A DNA stretch of 64,000 nucleotides. It comes from a virus. The notes beneath the pieces are model-generated. The model searched no databases, was not told the origin of the DNA, and saw only the letters and a list, made by a program, of their open reading frames with translations. The DNA lies in the IMG/VR virus record IMGVR_UViG_3300006188_000008; one strand, 5' to 3'. A program made the translations under genes and the position numbers. Position 1 is the first letter of the stretch, and every line of letters begins with the position of its first letter. Of this stretch, positions 11,611 through 23,767 are shown in pieces.

Positions 11611-13191
11611 TTAAACTCTTTCTAAGGCTCCAGTTCCTTGACTAGCATATTTCATAATCTCTTTTTCAAAAGAAGTTTCTTTAAGCATACTCCAATTTCT
11701 AATAACTTCAAACATTCCATTATTAAATCCAGAGACATAGAGAACATCTGGATCTGTAGGAAGTTGAGTGTTAGAAGTTCCTTGAAGATCAATCATAACA
11801 AACTTAGCATTAGGATTATTTCTTTTAATATTTTTCCAAGCTGCGTGTGCTTCGGTAGATCTTCCGTAATTGATATATTGTTTATTGTTTTCATCATCTG
11901 AAAACATAACAAAATAATCTACCTTATGCTTAGCACCTTGAACTGATTGAAGACTAGAAGCAATAGAAGTGCTGCTTCCCGAAAATCCAATTCTATCTAC
12001 ATTAGTAACTAAACTGTCCATAGGATTTAAGTTGGAAGTAATTTCTCTTGCCGAAGAGTCAAAAGTATACACCTTTGAATTAGGATTTTTCTTTAAGAAA
12101 GCACAAGCCATTAAACTAGCTACTTGAAAACAAGTAAGCCTATGGTCTACTCCAGCTCTAGGAGCTTCAGTATTACCATTTACTTTTGCTCCCATTGAAC
12201 CGGAAACATCAATAGATAAAATTACATTTCCTTCCAAAGTTGGAACATTTCGCAAACTATAATCTAAGGCTTGCTGAAGTCCAATACGCATTCTTTGATT
12301 AGTTACGTTTAAATAACTAGTATAGATTTCATGAGGGAACAAATTAGCTTTTACAATTTCTTGCTCATTTGCTAATTTAGCTGCTAGTGTTTCAGCAACT
12401 TGCTGATTATTAAACACTCCCTTTTTCTCTAAATTGTTAATATTCTGACGCAACTGATTCCAAGTCATTTGTTGAGCAAAAATTTGCCATTGTTCCTCAG
12501 AAAGCTTCTCTCCTTTAATTCTTTCAAAAGGAACTCTTGGAATAGGTTGAGTAGTGTCCTTCAACCAATTGTAATAAGTTTGAATTTGCTCGGGCAGATC
12601 CTCAGAATGTTCTCCCTTTCTAATAAGCTTGTAAACAGCCTCTCGTTGCTTGTCTCCCTTGGGAGAGGGATGAGCCATAGCCATGACTGCCGACAAGCTA
12701 GGATTAGCTCCTATTGACTGATTCCATACATCAATAGGACGACGAGAAGAGAACCAAGATTGAATCAACTTACGACCAGCGTAATTTAAATTTTTACTTC
12801 CAAATTGGCCCGTTTGAATAGTTTTCAAAAACCGACGAATACTAGAACCATCGTCACAAACTTTAGGGAAAATCTGTTTCCAATAAGGAGATTTTCTCTG
12901 ACGTAGCAATGCCAGCAAGACAACGCACATATCTTTCATGTGTTGTTTCTTAGTATAAAGAGCACAGGCTGCTACAAATTCTTCAGAACACTCTGAAGAG
13001 AGTTTCTTAACAAGTTCCAATTGCTCAGTTGCCTGAGTATAATATTTGTTATCAAGAAAACCAACACAAATAAGTTTAGCTAAACTTTGCTCTGCGGTTT
13101 CTTTATAAGCAACTGCTCCACTATTGTTAATTTCCGTAGCCTGAGTTGTAGTCGAAGTTCTTTCAGTATAAAGGATACTACTTTTATTCAT
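11611..13191 (-). CDS. Ro60/Rsr-like TROVE + vWA RNA-binding protein
   Basis: N-terminal N.SGAVAY, helical TROVE region, RQNINNL, vWA MIDAS DVSGSM and FSDDE; 526 aa. Confidence 0.9.
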   Translation of the reverse strand: MNKSSILYTERTSTTTQATEINNSGAVAYKETAEQSLAKLICVGFLDNKYYTQATEQLELVKKLSSECSEEFVAACALYTKKQHMKDMCVVLLALLRQRKSPYWKQIFPKVCDDGSSIRRFLKTIQTGQFGSKNLNYAGRKLIQSWFSSRRPIDVWNQSIGANPSLSAVMAMAHPSPKGDKQREAVYKLIRKGEHSEDLPEQIQTYYNWLKDTTQPIPRVPFERIKGEKLSEEQWQIFAQQMTWNQLRQNINNLEKKGVFNNQQVAETLAAKLANEQEIVKANLFPHEIYTSYLNVTNQRMRIGLQQALDYSLRNVPTLEGNVILSIDVSGSMGAKVNGNTEAPRAGVDHRLTCFQVASLMACAFLKKNPNSKVYTFDSSAREITSNLNPMDSLVTNVDRIGFSGSSTSIASSLQSVQGAKHKVDYFVMFSDDENNKQYINYGRSTEAHAAWKNIKRNNPNAKFVMIDLQGTSNTQLPTDPDVLYVSGFNNGMFEVIRNWSMLKETSFEKEIMKYASQGTGALERV

Positions 13192-13195
13192 AAGT

Positions 13196-13591
13196 TTATT
13201 GCATGTCCTTTTTTAGTGTATTTATTAAAAACGTAATTATAGTATTGTTCAATGATGTAGGAGCCAGTGCGTTACATTTCCCTCTAAGTTGATTTACATA
13301 AGGCAACCCGCCTGGTTTTCGTAGCACTTCTGCAATATAAATTAATTTGACATTTAGGTCAAACAAGCCCACAATAGCTCTATTTTCTGTAGGAAAGTAA
13401 CCTTCATGACCTACAGCATTACGCATGTAACTGCCCCAAGATTTTTGTATTTCGGAATCAACCGATAAAACGGTTCTTAACCCCAAAGGCAAAACTAAAC
13501 TTAGAGCTTCAGTTCCCAACGTATCTATGCCTGTTAACGGTATATGTTTTTTATTTAAGCACAATGACCAATCTGGATTAATAAATTGCAT
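13196..13591 (-). CDS. Hypothetical protein
   Basis: ORF between clpB and TROVE, same operon. Confidence 0.6.
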   Translation of the reverse strand: MQFINPDWSLCLNKKHIPLTGIDTLGTEALSLVLPLGLRTVLSVDSEIQKSWGSYMRNAVGHEGYFPTENRAIVGLFDLNVKLIYIAEVLRKPGGLPYVNQLRGKCNALAPTSLNNTIITFLINTLKKDMQ

Positions 13592-15575
13592 TGTTATTCT
13601 CCACTAGTTTCTTATTGTAAGCATAATAGACTATTTCAGTTCCAGTCTTAGTTGAAACTAATTCTGCACAAATATAATCTATGTCATTAGCTTCAAGCAG
13701 TTTTTTACTTACAGGATCTTCAATTAGTCTAACTACATTACGTTTAATTAGACGAGCACCAAAACCAGATTCATCATCATCTTTATTAATTTCATCTCGT
13801 TTAGAGAGAATAAAATCAATAACCTCTGTAGGCAGTTCTAGTTGGATATTCATATCTGCAAGCTTAGAGATAACTTTCTTTACTTGCAAATGGAAAATCT
13901 GTCGTAGAGTTTCTTGAGTCAAAGCCTTGAATTTAATAATATCGCCAATACGATTAATAAACTCAGGTGGGAATCTTTGCTTCATAGTTTCAATAGTCAT
14001 GTTAGTAGTCATGATAATTACACAATTAGTAAAATTAACAGTTCTACCTTGACCATCAGTCAAACGTCCTTCGTCAAGAAGTTGAAGGAGAATTTTATAA
14101 ATATCCGTATGAGCTTTTTCAATTTCATCCATAAGAATTACTGAATAAGGCTTTCTACGAACAGCTTCAGTTAATTGACCACCAGCTTCGTAACCAACAT
14201 ATCCAGGTGGCGGCCCAGTAAGACGATTAACTTGATGCTTTTCAGCAAATTCAGACATGTCAAGACGAATAAGGAATTTTTCATCATCAAATAATTCCTT
14301 AGTCAAGGCTTTAGAAAGCTCAGTTTTTCCAGTTCCTGTTGGGCCCATAAACATAAAGCTTGCTTTAGGTTGTTTGGGATCAGCTAAACCTGTTCTAGAA
14401 CGTCTAACAGCATTAGAAACTTTAGTTACTGCTTCGTCTTGAGCAAGAACACTTTCAGAAAGCCTTGTTTCCATTGAAAGAAGAACTTGTTTCTCATCTT
14501 TCAAAAGACTAGTTACTGGAATTTTAGTCCAGAGAGTAATAATCTTGGCAATATCTTCTTCAGTCACTTCTAACTTAAAGAATTTATATTCAAGATTATT
14601 TACTTTCTCAAGCTGTCTTTTTAGTTCGGGAATGTCTTTATACTTAATTTCTGAAACTTCTTCTAAATCAAGATTTTCTTCTAAAGAAATTTCTAGTTCG
14701 GCAATTTCTGCTTGAATTTTAACTTTAGTTCTAAAACTACTAGCTTCGTTCTCCCAAATGAGTTTCTGTTCCTCAGTTAATTCGGCCGGTGGTTGATACA
14801 TTCTACTGGATTTTAAAGCAGCCATTGCTTCGTCAATAAGATCAATTGCCTTATCCGGCAAATTTCTTTCAGTGACATATCGTTCCGAAAGAACAGCTGC
14901 GGACTCTAGAGCTTTAGTTGTAATGTTGATTCCATGAAACTCTTCATATTTAGTTTTAATATGATTAAGAATTTTTATGGTTTCTTGAACGGTCGGCGGT
15001 TCGATAAACACAGGCTGGAAACGCCGTTCGAGTCCTGCATCTTTTTCAATATTTGCTTTATATTCCGAATAAGTAGTTGCTCCAATACAACTAAACTCGC
15101 CCCTAGCAAGAGCAGGCTTAAGTAAGTTAGCGGCATCCATAGATCCTTCCGTTTTACCTGAATTGCACATAGTATGAATTTCATCAATAAATACTAAAAC
15201 TTTTCCGTTAGAATTTCTAACTTGGTCTACAACCTGGTCTAGACGTTCTTCAAAGTCACCTTTATATTTAGCTCCGGCTAGAAGCTTACTAATTTGCAGG
15301 GAGTATAGTTCTACGTCTTTTAGCTGCTCTTGAACATTACCGTCTGCAATATCTTGAGCGAGTTTTTCAATGATAGAATTTTTACCAACGCCCGCATTTC
15401 CAATAAGAACGGGATTATTTTTACGACGGCGAGCTAGAATATTAGTAATTCTAAGAATTTCGTCTTCTCGACCCAAAACGGGATCTAGAAGTCCCTGTCG
15501 AGCTTTCTCTGTTAGGTTCGTGCCGAACCGTTCCAAAGGCGGGCGATCATCCGTGGGTTCAAAATCAACTTCCAT
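13578..15575 (-). CDS. clpB: ClpB-like Hsp100 ATPase lacking the N-terminal domain
   Basis: LDPVLGR..EI, NBD1 GNAGVGKN/FIDEIH, AGAKYKG pore loop, short coiled coil, NBD2 GPTGTGKT/MDEIEKAH, GYVGY; no IGF loop. Confidence 0.88.
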   Translation of the reverse strand: MEVDFEPTDDRPPLERFGTNLTEKARQGLLDPVLGREDEILRITNILARRRKNNPVLIGNAGVGKNSIIEKLAQDIADGNVQEQLKDVELYSLQISKLLAGAKYKGDFEERLDQVVDQVRNSNGKVLVFIDEIHTMCNSGKTEGSMDAANLLKPALARGEFSCIGATTYSEYKANIEKDAGLERRFQPVFIEPPTVQETIKILNHIKTKYEEFHGINITTKALESAAVLSERYVTERNLPDKAIDLIDEAMAALKSSRMYQPPAELTEEQKLIWENEASSFRTKVKIQAEIAELEISLEENLDLEEVSEIKYKDIPELKRQLEKVNNLEYKFFKLEVTEEDIAKIITLWTKIPVTSLLKDEKQVLLSMETRLSESVLAQDEAVTKVSNAVRRSRTGLADPKQPKASFMFMGPTGTGKTELSKALTKELFDDEKFLIRLDMSEFAEKHQVNRLTGPPPGYVGYEAGGQLTEAVRRKPYSVILMDEIEKAHTDIYKILLQLLDEGRLTDGQGRTVNFTNCVIIMTTNMTIETMKQRFPPEFINRIGDIIKFKALTQETLRQIFHLQVKKVISKLADMNIQLELPTEVIDFILSKRDEINKDDDESGFGARLIKRNVVRLIEDPVSKKLLEANDIDYICAELVSTKTGTEIVYYAYNKKLVENNNAIY

Positions 15576-20875: not shown

Positions 20876-20952
20876 TGGTGGGAAGAGAATCTTGGCGAGA
20901 CCCGACTTCGGAGTTTTCAATTCCGCGCTCTAACCGTCTGAGCTATCTTCCC
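20876..20952 (-). tRNA. tRNA-Phe(GAA)-like, aberrant T-loop
   Basis: GGGAAGA/TCTTCCC A CCA; CGGAA-TTGAAAA-CTCCG; T-loop TCGCCAA. Confidence 0.8.
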
Positions 20953-20962
20953 ATGTAGCCTT

Positions 20963-21126
20963 AGATTTAAATAGAAATTTGTTAAAAGTGATAACACATT
21001 TTTTACTAGCGCGTTTACCATTCCGCCACTCGTCTATATAGACGAGGCAGGACTTGAACCTGCAAATCTTTCGATACTAATTCCTCATAGAATGTATTGT
21101 TATCTAAACACAAACTTCTAAAACCT
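20963..21126 (-). ncRNA. Circularly permuted tRNA mimic A (YrlA-like, Leu-type body)
   Basis: 5' stems, TACATTC, ATTAG, variable arm, GCAGG-TTCAAGT-CCTGC, acceptor closed by ATAT loop, D-arm GCG-GAATGGTAAA-CGC, CTAGT, complementary 3' stems. Confidence 0.85.
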
Positions 21127-21167
21127 GCAAATTATCGAAACGCTACTAACGATAATTTTAATTAAAA

Positions 21168-21255
21168 AGAGAATTCAACAAACACGAACGGATCAGGATC
21201 GACTAGGAAGGGACGCCAACAAACAAAAGGAGACAAAACACTTGTTGAATTCTCT
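21168..21255 (-). ncRNA. Hairpin RNA with 14-bp stem and 60-nt pyrimidine-rich loop
   Basis: AGAGAATTCAACAA/TTGTTGAATTCTCT starting 1 nt after a tRNA CCA, followed by a T tract. Confidence 0.55.
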
Positions 21256-21256
21256 A

Positions 21257-21333
21257 TGGTGGAGCAGGCTACTTGCCGAGTAGCGACCTCTGCGTTTTCA
21301 ATGCAACGTTCTAAACATCTGAACTACCGCTCC
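21257..21333 (-). tRNA. tRNA-Phe(GAA)-like, aberrant D- and T-loops
   Basis: GGAGCGG/CTGCTCC A CCA; TTGCA-TTGAAAA-CGCAG; D-loop lacks GG; T-loop TCGGCAA. Confidence 0.78.
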
Positions 21334-21931
21334 ATATATTAGATCTATAAAATTCTTTTAACCAAAATCCCTTAGGCTTGAGTTCTATTTGAAATTTTTT
21401 TGCTTTATTAGCAATAGTTTTATCTGAACATCCAAAAATTTTTGCAATTTTTGTTAACGGTAATTTTTCTATAAGATCTTTTAATTCTTCTTTACTTATA
21501 TCAAATTTAGAATGTTTAGGTAAAGATAGAAAGCACTTTTTACACAGTGTAGAATTAGGGTCTTTTACAAATTCATTGCATATATTACATTTTTTTGTAA
21601 TAAAAACACCCTGAATAGTGTAAACACCTTCCTCAGTTAAAGATCTATCTTTCTTTAGACAAGATTTTTTCTTAAGATTTTTTCCTCCAAAAGTTTCAGT
21701 TTGGCTGTGACAATTTTTGCAAAGAAATCTAAGATTTGACAACTCATTATTTCCAGGACATCCGTCAATATGATCTAGATCTAGAGACAAAGGTTTGCCT
21801 TGCCAATAAGGTTCTTGATTACATATTTGACAAACGTAAGGAATTAAGTTTTCTTCTAAAATAATTTTACGATAAAGAGAAGATCTTATACGTTTATTAG
21901 TATCTTTTTCTCTTATAAAGATATTAGTCAT
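21311..21931 (-). CDS. HNH endonuclease with C-terminal HTH (homing-type)
   Basis: CQIC...LDLDHIDG..GNN..SNLRFLCKNCH; C-terminal LTKIAKIFGCSDKTI. Confidence 0.85.
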   Translation of the reverse strand: MTNIFIREKDTNKRIRSSLYRKIILEENLIPYVCQICNQEPYWQGKPLSLDLDHIDGCPGNNELSNLRFLCKNCHSQTETFGGKNLKKKSCLKKDRSLTEEGVYTIQGVFITKKCNICNEFVKDPNSTLCKKCFLSLPKHSKFDISKEELKDLIEKLPLTKIAKIFGCSDKTIANKAKKFQIELKPKGFWLKEFYRSNIWSGSSDV

Positions 21932-22025
21932 AATAACCCTAGTATTATGACTATATAAAAAAGAAACCTTTTCTGTTAAAAAATCCTACCTAAAAAATTA
22001 TTCGGGACACAGATAATTTCTTTAA

Positions 22026-22101
22026 TGGTGGAATCTGACAACAATCACATTTGCCGATCTGAGTTTTTCACGCCCATGCTTTATTACTAAGCTAAGATTC
22101 C
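22026..22101 (-). tRNA. tRNA-Phe(GAA)-like, strongly degenerate T-arm
   Basis: GGAATCT/AGATTCC A CCA; TGGGC-GTGAAAA-ACTCA; no D-loop GG; no TTC loop. Confidence 0.65.
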
Positions 22102-22106
22102 ATAAC

Positions 22107-22183
22107 TGGTGGGAGAAAGTGGAATTACACGCACTGACCTCCGAGGGTTCAATTCGGCGCTCTGACTACTGAGCTATTCTCCC
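22107..22183 (-). tRNA. tRNA-Phe(GAA)-like, aberrant D- and T-loops
   Basis: GGGAGAA/TTCTCCC A CCA; CCGAA-TTGAACC-CTCGG; T-arm AGTG-CGTGTAATTC-CACT. Confidence 0.75.
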
Positions 22184-22256
22184 AGGAGGCTTCAATCGTC
22201 GCTTAAGGAGGAAATTATTCTCTGCCCGAAAGTCTGATCAAAACCTTGTATAACTT

Positions 22257-22375
22257 TTAAACTTGCTGAACAATTTTCAAAATTAAACTAATAACTAAAA
22301 CAGCTAAGAATAATTTCAAAAGAAGTTGACCAGCACAATAGCTACTATGAAGAATATTACTGCCCAATGAAGCAT
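22257..22375 (-). pseudogene. Frameshifted DUF1328/UPF0391-like small membrane protein remnant
   Basis: Frame 1 MLHWAVIFFIVAI; second frame AGQLLLKLFLAVLVISLI; central GFGG segment missing. Family recognised from memory. Confidence 0.45.
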
Positions 22376-22476
22376 TATTGGTTAACTACAACGCGTTCAA
22401 CCCAACGCAATACTTCCACAAAAACTTTAGCTCCAGTAAGAGCTGCTTTCAATCCAAGCCAAACAACAGTTTTCAT
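22375..22476 (-). CDS. 33-aa amphipathic small protein
   Basis: GGAG RBS; MKTVVWLGLKAALTGAKVFVEVLRWVERVVVNQ. Confidence 0.45.
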   Translation of the reverse strand: MKTVVWLGLKAALTGAKVFVEVLRWVERVVVNQ

Positions 22477-22477
22477 T

Positions 22478-22696
22478 TTACTCCTTATAACTCGCAGTAG
22501 TGACATTAAATACAGGTCCTGTCATGCCTACAGAACACATAGAGTCTTCTAGTTCACCTTCTAGAACTAATTCATAACCTTCTACTTGAAGATTTTCATT
22601 CAATCCTTCCAAAGTAAACATTTGGCCTTCTTCGGTTTTTAGGACAAGATGTCCACCTTCAAGGTCATTCTTTTCTAAAGTTCCGGTAAGAGTCAT
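22478..22696 (-). CDS. Small beta-barrel/OB-like protein (possibly DUF5818-like)
   Basis: GTLEKNDLEGGHLVL...LEGEL...C..G. Confidence 0.55.
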   Translation of the reverse strand: MTLTGTLEKNDLEGGHLVLKTEEGQMFTLEGLNENLQVEGYELVLEGELEDSMCSVGMTGPVFNVTTASYKE

Positions 22697-22722
22697 AATT
22701 TTTCTCTTTTCAAAATAATAAG

Positions 22723-22851
22723 CCCGTTAAAATCTTCTAAATAATCGTGGGACAGATGCTCTATCCATTGAGCTACTATAGAATTTCTTCATATAGACAG
22801 GAATTGAACCTGTAACTTTCTGTGGGAATGTAGATTATTTAATAACACGGG
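22723..22851 (-). ncRNA. Circularly permuted tRNA mimic B (YrlA-like, Arg-type body)
   Basis: CCCGT and AAATAAT stems, TACATTC, ACAGA, ACAGG-TTCAATT-CCTGT, acceptor closed by GAAA loop, GCTC-AATGGATA-GAGC, TCTGT, complementary 3' stems. Confidence 0.85.
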
Positions 22852-22856
22852 TTTGT

Positions 22857-22935
22857 TGGTGGAGCAAACTACCTCGGTAAGTAGTGTCCTTCGGGTTTTC
22901 AATCCGACGCTCTTGGACCACTGAGCTATCGCTCC
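22857..22935 (-). tRNA. tRNA-Phe(GAA)-like, aberrant 8-nt T-loop
   Basis: GGAGCGA/TTGCTCC A CCA; TCGGA-TTGAAAA-CCCGA; ACTAC-TTACCGAG-GTAGT. Confidence 0.78.
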
Positions 22936-22941
22936 ATATAA

Positions 22942-23099
22942 AAGAATTTAATACTTAAAGATTATCCAAATTATTTGACTTCAGCCTCTCGTCCACAGAC
23001 TCTTCGTTTATTTCTAAACTGATTAGCCCGGAGGGATTCGAACCCCCGTTTCTCGTAAAAGAAAGAATGTATTTTGGAAGTAGACACTATTAAATTCTT
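22942..23099 (-). ncRNA. Circularly permuted tRNA mimic C (YrlA-like, Glu-type body)
   Basis: 12-bp outer stem AAGAATTTAATA, TCCAAA/TTTGGA, TACATTC, GGGGG-TTCGAAT-CCCTC, extended acceptor closed by GAAA, GAC-GAGAGGCTGAA-GTC. Confidence 0.8.
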
Positions 23100-23101
23100 A
23101 T

Positions 23102-23177
23102 TGGTGCCCAAAGCCGGTTCTACCCACGGCCACCCCTACGGTTTCAATGTAGTGCTCTACTACTGAGCTATTTGGGC
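23102..23177 (-). tRNA. tRNA-Phe(GAA)-like, aberrant D- and T-loops
   Basis: GCCCAAA/TTTGGGC A CCA; CTACA-TTGAAAC-CGTAG; GCCG-TGGGTAGAAC-CGGC. Confidence 0.75.
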
Positions 23178-23274: not shown

Positions 23275-23350
23275 TGGTGGGAAAGGATGGGATTGAACCA
23301 CCGACCTGCTCTTTTTCACGGAGCCGCTCTAGTCTCTGAGCTACCTTCCC
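23275..23350 (-). tRNA. tRNA-Phe(GAA), canonical T-loop but no D-loop GG
   Basis: GGGAAGG/CTTTCCC A CCA; GCTCC-GTGAAAA-AGAGC; T-loop TTCAATC. Confidence 0.85.
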
Positions 23351-23738: not shown

Positions 23739-23767
23739 AATATACAGGATCGGTTCCGACTTGTCAA
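23739..23767 (-). promoter_or_regulatory. Sigma70-type promoter of the RNA array
   Basis: TTGACA-17 bp-TATATT. Confidence 0.8.

What the first reader, a model, noticed from the sequence alone, without database searches (positions are those of the whole stretch)
20963..23099. Three circularly permuted, YrlA/Y RNA-like tRNA mimics built on different tRNA bodies
Seen: elements A (20963-21126), B (22723-22851) and C (22942-23099) read T-arm, then an acceptor stem closed by a loop (ATAT, GAAA, GAAA), then D-arm. The anticodon loop is replaced by two paired terminal stems separated by an internal loop. All keep canonical T-loops and D-loop GG. Known: this topology is that of YrlA, the tRNA-mimicking Y RNA bound by bacterial Ro60 (Rsr). 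Inference: the bodies look Leu-like (long variable arm), Arg-like and Glu-like, suggesting repeated conversion of real tRNAs into Y RNA-like mimics. Three copies located 8-10 kb from the Ro60 gene is not an arrangement I recognise.
Basis: partly seen in the sequence, partly recalled or inferred. Interest (0 to 1): 0.88.

Follow-up and report, generated by a model that had tools for sequence, protein, structure and literature searches.

The report
Three phage Y-RNA-type tRNA mimics
Three small RNA genes in a 145-kb wastewater phage are inside-out tRNA look-alikes of the YrlA/Y RNA kind, the usual RNA partners of the Ro60 protein this phage also encodes; the kind is known, but this form has a rewritten protein-binding handle.

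Summary
A, B and C each read T-arm, loop-closed acceptor stem, D-arm, and their ends pair into two stems split by an internal loop.

A covariance model built only from 22 related elements of other Ro60-encoding phage contigs finds A, B and C full length. Scores are 59.7, 51.1 and 34.4 bits (E 5e-12 to 6e-6). Nothing else in the 145-kb genome scores as a full-length match.

They are divergent YrlA-type Y RNAs. They keep the architecture, the conserved UA(CAU) after the second stem, the tRNA elbow nucleotides and a covarying Levitt pair. They lack the defining CGAA(UG) handle motif (GUGU instead) and the family's conserved G.U/G-C pairs, and they miss Rfam's threshold.

Body types:
- A is Leu-like.
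- B is weakly Arg-like, a generic class I body.
- C is Ser-like class II, not Glu-like.

Several copies lying 5-9 kb from Ro60 is common in these phages: 147 elements in 44 contigs, all on the Ro60 strand. This scan has reported similar phage Ro60/tRNA-mimic families on other DNA.

No expression or binding data exist. Verdict: a new variant of a known kind, of moderate interest.

The parts
20964..21125 (-). Element A, a Y RNA-like tRNA mimic with a Leu-like class II body. S1 21125-21110 pairs with 20982-20964. Internal-loop GUUUA 21109-21105. S2 21104-21098 pairs with 20996-20990. AUACAUUC 21097-21090. T-arm 21063-21047. Closed acceptor stem 21046-21029 (7 bp, loop AUAU). D-arm 21026-21011.
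   Evidence: R1 gives 59.7 bits, E 4.9e-12, full length. The MFE recovers S1, S2, T and AS, z -2.58. Nearest tRNA type is Leu, 17.0 against 10.3 for the next. Rfam YrlA scores 26.6 bits, below the threshold of 69.
22723..22851 (-). Element B, a Y RNA-like tRNA mimic with a class I, Arg-like body. S1 CCCGU/ACGGG. Internal-loop GUUAU. S2 UAAAUAAUC/GAUUAUUUA. UACAUUC. Anticodon-stem analogue ACAGA/UCUGU. Variable loop AAGUU. Then T-arm, an acceptor stem closed by GAAA, and a D-arm.
   Evidence: R1 gives 51.1 bits, E 5.6e-10. MFE z is -2.68. Rfam YrlA scores 29 bits, below threshold. It has the same architecture as L034:2436-2566.
22942..23099 (-). Element C, a Y RNA-like tRNA mimic with a Ser-like class II body. 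S1 is 12 bp (23099-23088 with 22953-22942). S2 UCCAAA/UUUGGA. AUACAUUC. A long variable arm, a T-arm, a 13-bp interrupted acceptor hairpin capped by GAAA, and a D-arm with a 3-bp stem.
   Evidence: R1 gives 34.4 bits, E 5.7e-6, full length. MFE z is only -1.0. No Rfam YrlA hit. Nearest tRNA type is Ser.
11611..13191 (-). Ro60 (TROVE plus vWA) gene, the presumed protein partner. It lies 7.8-9.9 kb downstream of A, B and C on the same strand.
   Evidence: Pfam vWA_Ro60, E 2e-15. PDB matches to Thermus phage phiLo Ro60 (9l5y/9kop, 7e-10) and Xenopus Ro60 (1yvp, 1e-4). Homologues at 42-53% identity.
23739..23767 (-). Promoter-like site (TTGACA, 17-nt spacer, TATATT) at the head of the minus-strand RNA array.
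   Evidence: 11 of 12 consensus matches. This is a consensus match only.
23102..23177 (-). tRNA-Phe(GAA)-like gene t5 with encoded CCA. Its CCA ends 2 nt before the 5' stem of C. Presumed processing signal.
   Evidence: Rfam tRNA 43 bits. Spacing read. The processing role is inferred.
22857..22935 (-). tRNA-Phe(GAA)-like gene t4 with encoded CCA. Its 5' end lies 6 nt after the 3' stem of C, and its CCA lies 5 nt before S1 of B.
   Evidence: Rfam tRNA 46.7 bits. Spacing read. The processing role is inferred.
20876..20952 (-). tRNA-Phe(GAA)-like gene t1 with encoded CCA. Its 5' end lies 11 nt after the 3' stem of A.
   Evidence: Rfam tRNA 40.5 bits. Spacing read. The processing role is inferred.

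Best explanation
A, B and C are divergent members of the YrlA class of bacterial and phage Y RNAs.

Shown here:
- Each is a two-module RNA.
- The paired 5' and 3' ends form a handle: S1, an internal loop, S2, then the conserved UA(CAU).
- The other module is an acceptor-closed, anticodon-less tRNA mimic with a complete elbow.
- They belong to a large structured-RNA family that sits on the Ro60 strand in Ro60-encoding phages.

Inferred:
- They are transcribed with the neighbouring tRNA-like genes from the promoter-like site at 23767-23739.
- Host tRNA-processing enzymes acting on the flanking tRNA-like units (2-11 nt away) cut them out.
- The handle then binds the phage Ro60.
- The tRNA-shaped module presents Ro60 to, or gates it against, a tRNA-recognising host factor. 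Models are bacterial Rsr-YrlA-PNPase and phage phiLo Ro60-Yrl-PNPase.
- The likely purpose is phage control of host RNA decay or counter-defence.
For: - R1, built only from relatives (A2), hits A, B and C full length at 59.7, 51.1 and 34.4 bits. Nothing else in the genome scores as a full-length match.
- Family structure: 27 of 29 pairs show compensatory changes. In A4, 95.9% of cells are paired against 38-48% when partners are slid, and the covariation score is 0.636 against 0.07-0.12.
- All 147 family hits in 44 Ro60 contigs lie on the Ro60 strand.
- In records found through the RNA pattern alone, Ro60, where present, lies within 3 kb on the same strand.
- S1 and S2 of A, B and C differ completely in sequence yet keep the same architecture. 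GUGU, UACAUUC and YUUUUA sit at the same structural places.
- Tertiary nucleotides are intact: U8, A14, G18 G19, UUCRANY, G53-C61.
- The Levitt pair covaries: A15-U48 in A and B, G15-C48 in C (read).
- The conserved UA, variable acceptor-stem length and class II-type variable loops are described YrlA traits.
- A phage Ro60 binds phage Y RNA-like RNAs and host PNPase (PMC12135203).
- The phage has a Ro60 gene on the same strand.
Against: - The defining handle motif GNCGAAN0-1G (CGAAUG in the phage family) is absent. A, B and C have GUGU at that place.
- The near-invariant G.U and G-C pairs of S2 (59 and 58 of 67 sequences) are also absent.
- Rfam YrlA scores are 29 and 26.6 bits, with none for C, against a threshold of 69. 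A tandem pair of ordinary tRNAs reaches 27 bits.
- The elements lie 7.8-9.9 kb from Ro60, and no Y RNA lies beside the gene.
- The contigs of the closest Ro60 relatives (L012, L014, L016) show no such RNA in the sequence available.
- No public RNA run holds this phage, so neither expression nor ends are known.
- C folds no better than shuffles.
Confidence: 0.68

Rival explanations
1. They are Ro60-independent tRNA mimics. They descend from Y RNAs but have lost the Ro60 handle motif. They act alone or with another protein, as decoys or sponges for tRNA-recognising host factors such as defence nucleases, modification enzymes or synthetases that read class II shape.
For: - The CGAA(UG) motif and the conserved S2 G.U/G-C pairs are missing.
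- They lie 8-10 kb from Ro60.
- Three different body types sit in one phage.
- Some complete phage records with family hits show no Ro60 by profile search (G003, G007, G008).
Against: - The three paralogues still share sequence motifs in the handle (GUGU, UACAUUC, YUUUUA). This argues for a common sequence-specific partner of the handle.
- The phage keeps an intact Ro60 on the same strand.
- Relatives with all copies 5-9 kb from Ro60 are common.
Confidence: 0.22
2. They are permuted tRNA genes. The precursor is circularised or joined at the termini, and the acceptor loop is opened to give working Leu, Arg and Ser tRNAs.
For: - The order is 3' half before 5' half, and the tRNA cores are intact.
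- A has a 7-bp acceptor stem. M. smegmatis YrlA, with a 7-bp stem, is cut by RNase P and receives CCA (PMC4201824).
Against: - The acceptor stems are closed by 4-nt loops, with no discriminator, trailer or leader.
- No 7-nt anticodon loop or anticodon can be rebuilt from the termini. These instead form 5-16-bp stems with conserved internal loops.
- B has a bulged 8-bp acceptor stem and C an interrupted 13-bp one.
- The handle is homologous to that of Y RNAs that carry no tRNA part at all: the short 60-90-nt hits among the 147 family hits.
Confidence: 0.03
3. They are decaying relics of tRNA or Y RNA genes with no present function.
For: - The handle motifs diverge from the family consensus.
- C folds weakly.
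- The neighbourhood is full of aberrant tRNA-like genes.
Against: - All helices are kept although their sequences are unrelated.
- All elbow nucleotides and the Levitt pair are intact in three copies.
- Motifs are shared among the three.
- Spacing to flanking tRNA-like units is tight in a compact phage genome.
Confidence: 0.05

Closest known systems
YrlA (Y RNA-like A; Rfam RF02553; Chen et al. 2014, PMC4201824; structure preprint 10.1101/312249)
   Same: - The ends pair into a long interrupted stem, the Ro60-binding module.
- The other module is a tRNA mimic in the order T-arm, loop-closed acceptor stem, D-arm.
- The elbow and Levitt pair are kept.
- A conserved UA follows the inner handle stem.
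- Acceptor-stem length varies, and class II-type variable arms occur.
- The genes lie on the Ro60 strand, and phage examples are known (22 phages in 2014).
   Different: - There is no GNCGAAN0-1G motif (GUGU instead).
- The handle's conserved G.U/G-C pairs are missing.
- Scores are far below Rfam's threshold.
- The elements lie 7.8-9.9 kb from Ro60, against the 4-kb criterion of the survey.
- A and C have class II D-arms instead of the conserved GCUC..GAGC D-arm.
- The handles are longer.
Yrl1 and Yrl2 of Thermus phage phiLo with phage Ro60 (PMC12135203)
   Same: - The Ro60 is phage-encoded, and it is the best PDB match of this window's Ro60.
- There are several phage-encoded Y RNA-like partners.
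- The proposed use is capture of host PNPase.
   Different: - The phiLo RNAs were picked by their CGAA motif and lie just upstream of Ro60.
- That paper's text, as searched, gave no passage describing a tRNA-like module in them.
Mycobacterium smegmatis YrlA (PMC4201824)
   Same: It has a 7-bp acceptor-like stem, as in element A.
   Different: It was shown to be cut by RNase P and to receive CCA. Nothing is known for A, whose loop is only AUAU.
Permuted tRNA genes of Cyanidioschyzon merolae
   Same: The 3' half is encoded before the 5' half.
   Different: Those genes mature through a circular intermediate made at a bulge-helix-bulge motif. They carry a processable linker between the acceptor strands and yield real tRNAs. 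None of these features is present here.
Ro60-like gp130 of E. coli phage Bas63 (PhageMaP preprint, PMC11482910)
   Same: It is a phage Ro60-type gene next to a tRNA gene array suspected to hide Y RNAs. It gives a functional lead, counter-defence against the Ppl system.
   Different: It was recognised by structural similarity only, and its RNAs are not defined in that paper. No Ppl link is known for this phage.

Membership tests
YrlA (Rfam RF02553) | tRNA-like module in permuted order: T-arm, loop-closed acceptor-like stem, D-arm | tested here: met
   Read directly. Aligned to the T, AS and D helices of R1 in all three elements.
YrlA (Rfam RF02553) | tRNA tertiary nucleotides, including a covarying Levitt pair (15-48) | tested here: met
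   U8, A14, G18 G19, T-loop UUCRANY and G53-C61 are present in A, B and C. The Levitt pair is A15-U48 in A and B and G15-C48 in C. This is a reading of the sequence, not a structure.
YrlA (Rfam RF02553) | 5' and 3' ends pair into a long stem broken by internal loops (the Ro60-binding module) | tested here: met
   S1 and S2 are present in all three with unrelated sequences. Family-level covariation is strong.
YrlA (Rfam RF02553) | GNCGAAN0-1G motif on the 5' strand of the handle | tested here: not met
   A has UUUGUGUUUA, B has CCGUGUUAU and C has AUAGUGUCU at the aligned place. There is no CGAA.
YrlA (Rfam RF02553) | Conserved UA after the inner handle stem (the kink nucleotides) | tested here: met
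   (A/C)UACAUUC follows S2 directly in A, B and C. UACAU is invariant in the 22 relatives, but these were chosen for holding it, so that invariance is circular. R1 then recovered 147 hits.
YrlA (Rfam RF02553) | Score at or above Rfam's gathering threshold (69 bits) | tested here: not met
   B scores 29 bits, A scores 26.6 and C has no hit. Among 11 relatives' loci only one element passes, L051 at 71.3 bits, so the threshold excludes most phage members.
YrlA (Rfam RF02553) | Encoded on the Ro60 strand within 4 kb of it (the survey's criterion) | tested here: inconclusive
   The strand is the same, but the distance is 7.8-9.9 kb. In relatives, 46 of 147 copies lie beyond 4 kb.
YrlA (Rfam RF02553) | Bound by Ro60/Rsr in vivo or in vitro | not testable with these tools
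   No RNA-protein prediction tool was available, and no RNA runs hold the phage.
Phage Ro60-linked Y RNA family modelled here (R1) | Full-length match to a covariance model built from relatives only | tested here: met
   59.7, 51.1 and 34.4 bits, with E 4.9e-12 to 5.7e-6.
Phage Ro60-linked Y RNA family modelled here (R1) | Conserved G.U and G-C pairs in S2 next to UACAU | tested here: not met
   G.U occurs in 59 of 67 and G-C in 58 of 67 family sequences. The S2 helices of A, B and C (GAUAACA, UAAAUAAUC, UCCAAA) lack them.
Permuted tRNA genes | Termini that rebuild an anticodon loop, and a removable linker with discriminator between the acceptor strands | tested here: not met
   The acceptor loops are 4 nt. 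The termini form 5-16-bp stems with conserved internal loops, and no anticodon loop can be rebuilt.

The most novel reading that the evidence does not exclude
The phage has rewritten the Y RNA handle (GUGU for CGAAUG, and no G.U in S2). It fields three mimics shaped on different tRNA classes (Leu, Arg, Ser), which alternate with seven elbow-less tRNA-Phe(GAA)-like RNAs. Together these could form a dedicated system in which Ro60, or a different handle-binding protein, is aimed at distinct class-specific tRNA-binding host factors, for instance defence nucleases or synthetases. The elbow-less tRNA-like RNAs would then serve as more than processing punctuation.
Probability: 0.12. Interest if true: 0.8.

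Novelty: new variant of a known kind. Interest (0 to 1): 0.45.

Why it matters
Y RNAs are the adaptor and gate of Ro60, but what their tRNA-shaped module recognises is still unknown, and so is what Ro60 does for phages.

This phage offers three natural variants of that module, two class II and one class I, on one divergent handle. That makes a ready-made specificity panel for testing.

The survey done here also shows three general points:
- Ro60-encoding phages commonly carry arrays of 3-12 Y RNA genes.
- These copies lie up to at least 9 kb from Ro60.
- Rfam's threshold and the old 4-kb rule miss most of them.

Annotators should therefore expect many 'odd tRNAs' in phage tRNA clusters to be Y RNAs.

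Tried and rejected
- RNA evidence: no public RNA run holds the stretch. Laying four partial DNA holders gave only identical low-depth fragments, with no variants.
- Close relatives: exact-peptide scans of IMG/VR with the 206-aa ORF and with Ro60 found nothing useful. A nucleotide search of cultured phages found no homologue of the array.
- The contigs of the closest Ro60 relatives (L012, L014, L016; 47-53% identity) hold no family hit even with filters off. They are short fragments, so this says little.
- An IMG/VR scan for UACAUUC plus a T-loop gave more family members in low-GC phages, but none with the GUGU handle. No covariation could be tested within the window's own subtype beyond the three paralogues.
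- A fourth 'YrlA' hit in the genome (C1:40305-40401) was rejected. It is two adjacent ordinary tRNAs.
- My first idea, that the 3' YUUUUA motif pairs with the strand 5' of UACAU as it does in relatives (AAGGU/ACUUU), was dropped. In A, B and C it lies outside S2.
- The MFE hairpin UACAUUC..GGAAU in A was rejected in favour of a Leu-type variable arm.
- Recent conversion from the phage's own tRNAs was tested and not supported.
- Two review papers on bacterial Y RNAs were not held in the library.
Full report
**Context**

The window is the minus strand of positions 76203-140202 of a 145,021-bp IMG/VR phage record with direct terminal repeats. GC content is about 31%. The same phage recurs in wastewater and bioreactor metagenomes. 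ORF 11611-13191 (minus strand) is a Ro60 homologue. It hits Pfam vWA_Ro60 at 2e-15. Its best solved relatives are the Ro60 of Thermus phage phiLo and Xenopus Ro60.

**The observation**

On the minus strand, A (21125-20964), B (22851-22723) and C (23099-22942) each read T-arm, acceptor-like stem closed by a tetraloop (AUAU, GAAA, GAAA), then D-arm. The T-loops are canonical and the D-loops carry GG.

The ends pair into two stems, S1 and S2, separated by an internal loop. S1 and S2 have unrelated sequences in the three copies. Three short motifs occupy the same structural places in all three:
- GUGU straight after the 5' strand of S1.
- (A/C)UACAUUC straight after the 5' strand of S2.
- YUUUUA or CUUUAAG before the 3' strand of S1.

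Thermodynamic folding recovers S1, S2, T and AS in A and B (z -2.6 and -2.7). It is weak for C (z -1.0).

**Is it YrlA?**

Rfam's YrlA model matches B (29 bits) and A (26.6 bits) full length but far below its threshold of 69, and it misses C. Such scores mean little alone, because two adjacent ordinary tRNAs elsewhere in the genome reach 27 bits.

I therefore looked for relatives. Ro60 homologues of 30-53% identity led to about 80 phage contigs. Gene-free gaps beside Ro60 in L009 and L011 hold tRNAs and acceptor-closed tRNA-like elements. Each of these elements is preceded by (G)GNUUACAUU.

A scan for T-arm, hairpin and D-arm with TACAT upstream found such elements widely. Many carry the canonical YrlA 5' text, for example GCAGCGAAUGCUGUGGGGACUACAU in L041. 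So the UACAU of A, B and C corresponds to the conserved CUA of the Rfam YrlA consensus, and to the conserved UA kink of the crystal structure.

Twenty-two such elements from other contigs were aligned (A2). I selected them for holding TACAT, so the invariance of that word in A2 is circular. RNAalifold recovers S1, S2, T, AS and D, and 27 of 29 pairs show compensatory changes.

The covariance model R1 built from A2 contains no window sequence. Run without filters on the window it returns:

| Element | Coordinates | Bits | E-value |
|---|---|---|---|
| A | 20974-21117 | 59.7 | 4.9e-12 |
| B | 22719-22854 | 51.1 | 5.6e-10 |
| C | 22945-23095 | 34.4 | 5.7e-6 |

All three are full length and on the minus strand. 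Everything else scores 14 bits or less. The rest of the genome adds only the tandem-tRNA artefact as a partial hit.

On a model-fitted alignment of 67 family members that includes A and B, 95.9% of cells pair, against 38-48% when partners are slid. The covariation score is 0.636 against 0.07-0.12. That alignment leans towards the model, but the independent RNAalifold result agrees.

**What differs**

The family's 5' handle text CGAAUG is the GNCGAAN0-1G motif that defines YrlA (PMC4201824). In A, B and C it is replaced by GUGU. The near-invariant G.U and G-C pairs of S2 (59 and 58 of 67 sequences) are also missing. Since a defining feature fails, I do not file these as plain YrlA members. I treat them as a divergent variant of that kind.

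**Body types**

I compared each element with 422 ARAGORN tRNAs from the fetched phage loci.
- A is clearly Leu-like. It has the D-arm UGGCGGAAUGGUAAACGCG, G9 and a 13-nt variable arm. Its score is 17.0 against 10.3 for the next type.
- B is nearest to tRNA-Arg(UCU), but with a generic class I D-arm.
- C is nearest to tRNA-Ser. It has a 3-bp D-stem, an 11-nt D-loop, G9 and a 5-bp variable arm. It is not Glu-like.

None of the three is closest to the phage's own tRNAs. Leu-like bodies recur in other phages of the family (L023, L024, L050, L075). Class II-type variable loops are already described for YrlAs. So 'repeated conversion of real tRNAs' in this phage is neither needed nor shown. Module exchange at some earlier time remains possible.

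**Arrangement**

R1 finds 147 elements in 44 of 78 relatives' loci, all on the Ro60 strand. Twenty-five loci hold 3 to 12 copies. About a third of the hits are short forms without the tRNA module, like YrlB. Forty-six hits lie more than 4 kb from Ro60, and 22 lie more than 7 kb away. Several phages have all copies 5-9 kb away. Three copies at 7.8-9.9 kb is therefore ordinary for this group, although it lies outside the 4-kb rule of the 2014 survey.

Records reached through the RNA pattern alone carry Ro60 in 4 of 10 cases. Where Ro60 is present, the RNAs lie within 3 kb on the same strand. Three complete records show none by this profile. The link is strong but not absolute, or their Ro60-like proteins are too distant for the profile to see.

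**Likely working**

A promoter-like site (TTGACA, 17-nt spacer, TATATT) at 23767-23739 heads the minus-strand array. The spacing to the flanking tRNA-like genes is tight:

| Boundary | Spacer |
|---|---|
| CCA of tRNA-like gene t5 to the start of C | 2 nt |
| End of C to the 5' end of t4 | 6 nt |
| CCA of t4 to the start of B | 5 nt |
| End of A to the 5' end of t1 | 11 nt |

In relatives too, Y RNAs follow tRNA CCA ends closely. I infer that the array is transcribed as one unit and that the RNAs are released by RNase P and 3'-end processing at the flanking units. I further infer that the handle binds phage Ro60 and that the tRNA-shaped module engages a tRNA-recognising factor. Models are Rsr-YrlA-PNPase and the phiLo Ro60-Yrl-PNPase complex. 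A Ro60-like phage protein has also been reported to counter the Ppl defence system (PMC11482910). None of these steps is shown for this phage.

**Rivals**

- Ro60-independent mimics (0.22) fit the lost motifs and the distance.
- Permuted tRNA genes (0.03) are contradicted by the 4-nt acceptor loops, by the absence of any rebuildable anticodon loop, and by handle homology with Y RNAs that have no tRNA part.
- Relics (0.05) are contradicted by intact helices, elbows and shared motifs.

**Verdict**

It is best read as three divergent YrlA-type Y RNAs of a Ro60-encoding phage. This scan has already reported similar phage Ro60/tRNA-mimic families on other DNA. It is a new variant of a known kind, of moderate interest.

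Noticed in passing
window 20876-20952, 21257-21333, 22026-22101, 22107-22183, 22857-22935, 23102-23177, 23275-23350 (all minus strand): Seven tRNA-like genes all carry anticodon GAA and an encoded CCA, and their acceptor stems all differ. Only the last has a canonical T-loop and is found by ARAGORN. Six score 40-52 bits with Rfam tRNA and one scores 28.5. All have a mismatch at pair 31-39, most within AUUGAAAAC. L009:6700-6770 in a relative has the same AUUGAAAAC loop. They may be processing punctuation, or something more.
   Followed up: partly
window 21168-21255 (minus strand): A 14-bp hairpin (AGAGAAUUCAACAA/UUGUUGAAUUCUCU) has a 60-nt pyrimidine-rich loop. The loop opens with GUGUUUUGU, the same GUGU word that follows S1 in A, B and C. 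It could be a YrlB-like Y RNA of this phage's handle type. R1 does not detect it.
   Followed up: partly
loci L085, L034, L033, L027, L024, L075 (relatives): Ro60-encoding phage contigs carry arrays of 6-12 Y RNA genes mixed with tRNA genes, some with and some without the tRNA module. Rfam's YrlA threshold passes only one element among 11 relatives' loci scanned at that threshold (L051, 71.3 bits).
   Followed up: yes
alignment A4, columns 20/289 and 21/288: A near-invariant G.U wobble and an adjacent G-C pair sit in the inner handle stem, next to UACAU, across the phage family (59 and 58 of 67). This is a likely protein-recognition point. It is absent from the window's three elements.
   Followed up: partly
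window 13578-15575 (minus strand); L012:2035-5148; L014:4411-6480: A ClpB-like double AAA+ ATPase lies just upstream of Ro60 in this phage and in its two closest Ro60 relatives. This suggests a conserved ClpB-Ro60 gene pair.
   Followed up: no
G000:C1:40355-40447 (outside the window): A tRNA-Ile(UAU) of 93 nt has a long extra arm, which is unusual for a class I tRNA. It sits directly after tRNA-Arg(UCU). The pair mimics a YrlA hit in Rfam (27.1 bits).
   Followed up: partly
L009:6900-7300: A relative's gap upstream of Ro60 holds several CCA-ended tRNA-like genes with aberrant T-loops or missing arms, set between the Y RNAs. The aberrant tRNA-like genes of the window may therefore be a wider trait.
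   Followed up: no
window 21311-21931 and 22478-22696 (minus strand): Two protein ORFs (206 aa, Cys-rich with a weak HTH hit; and 72 aa) sit inside the RNA array. The 72-aa ORF's start codon follows the 3' stem of B by about 25 nt.
   Followed up: no
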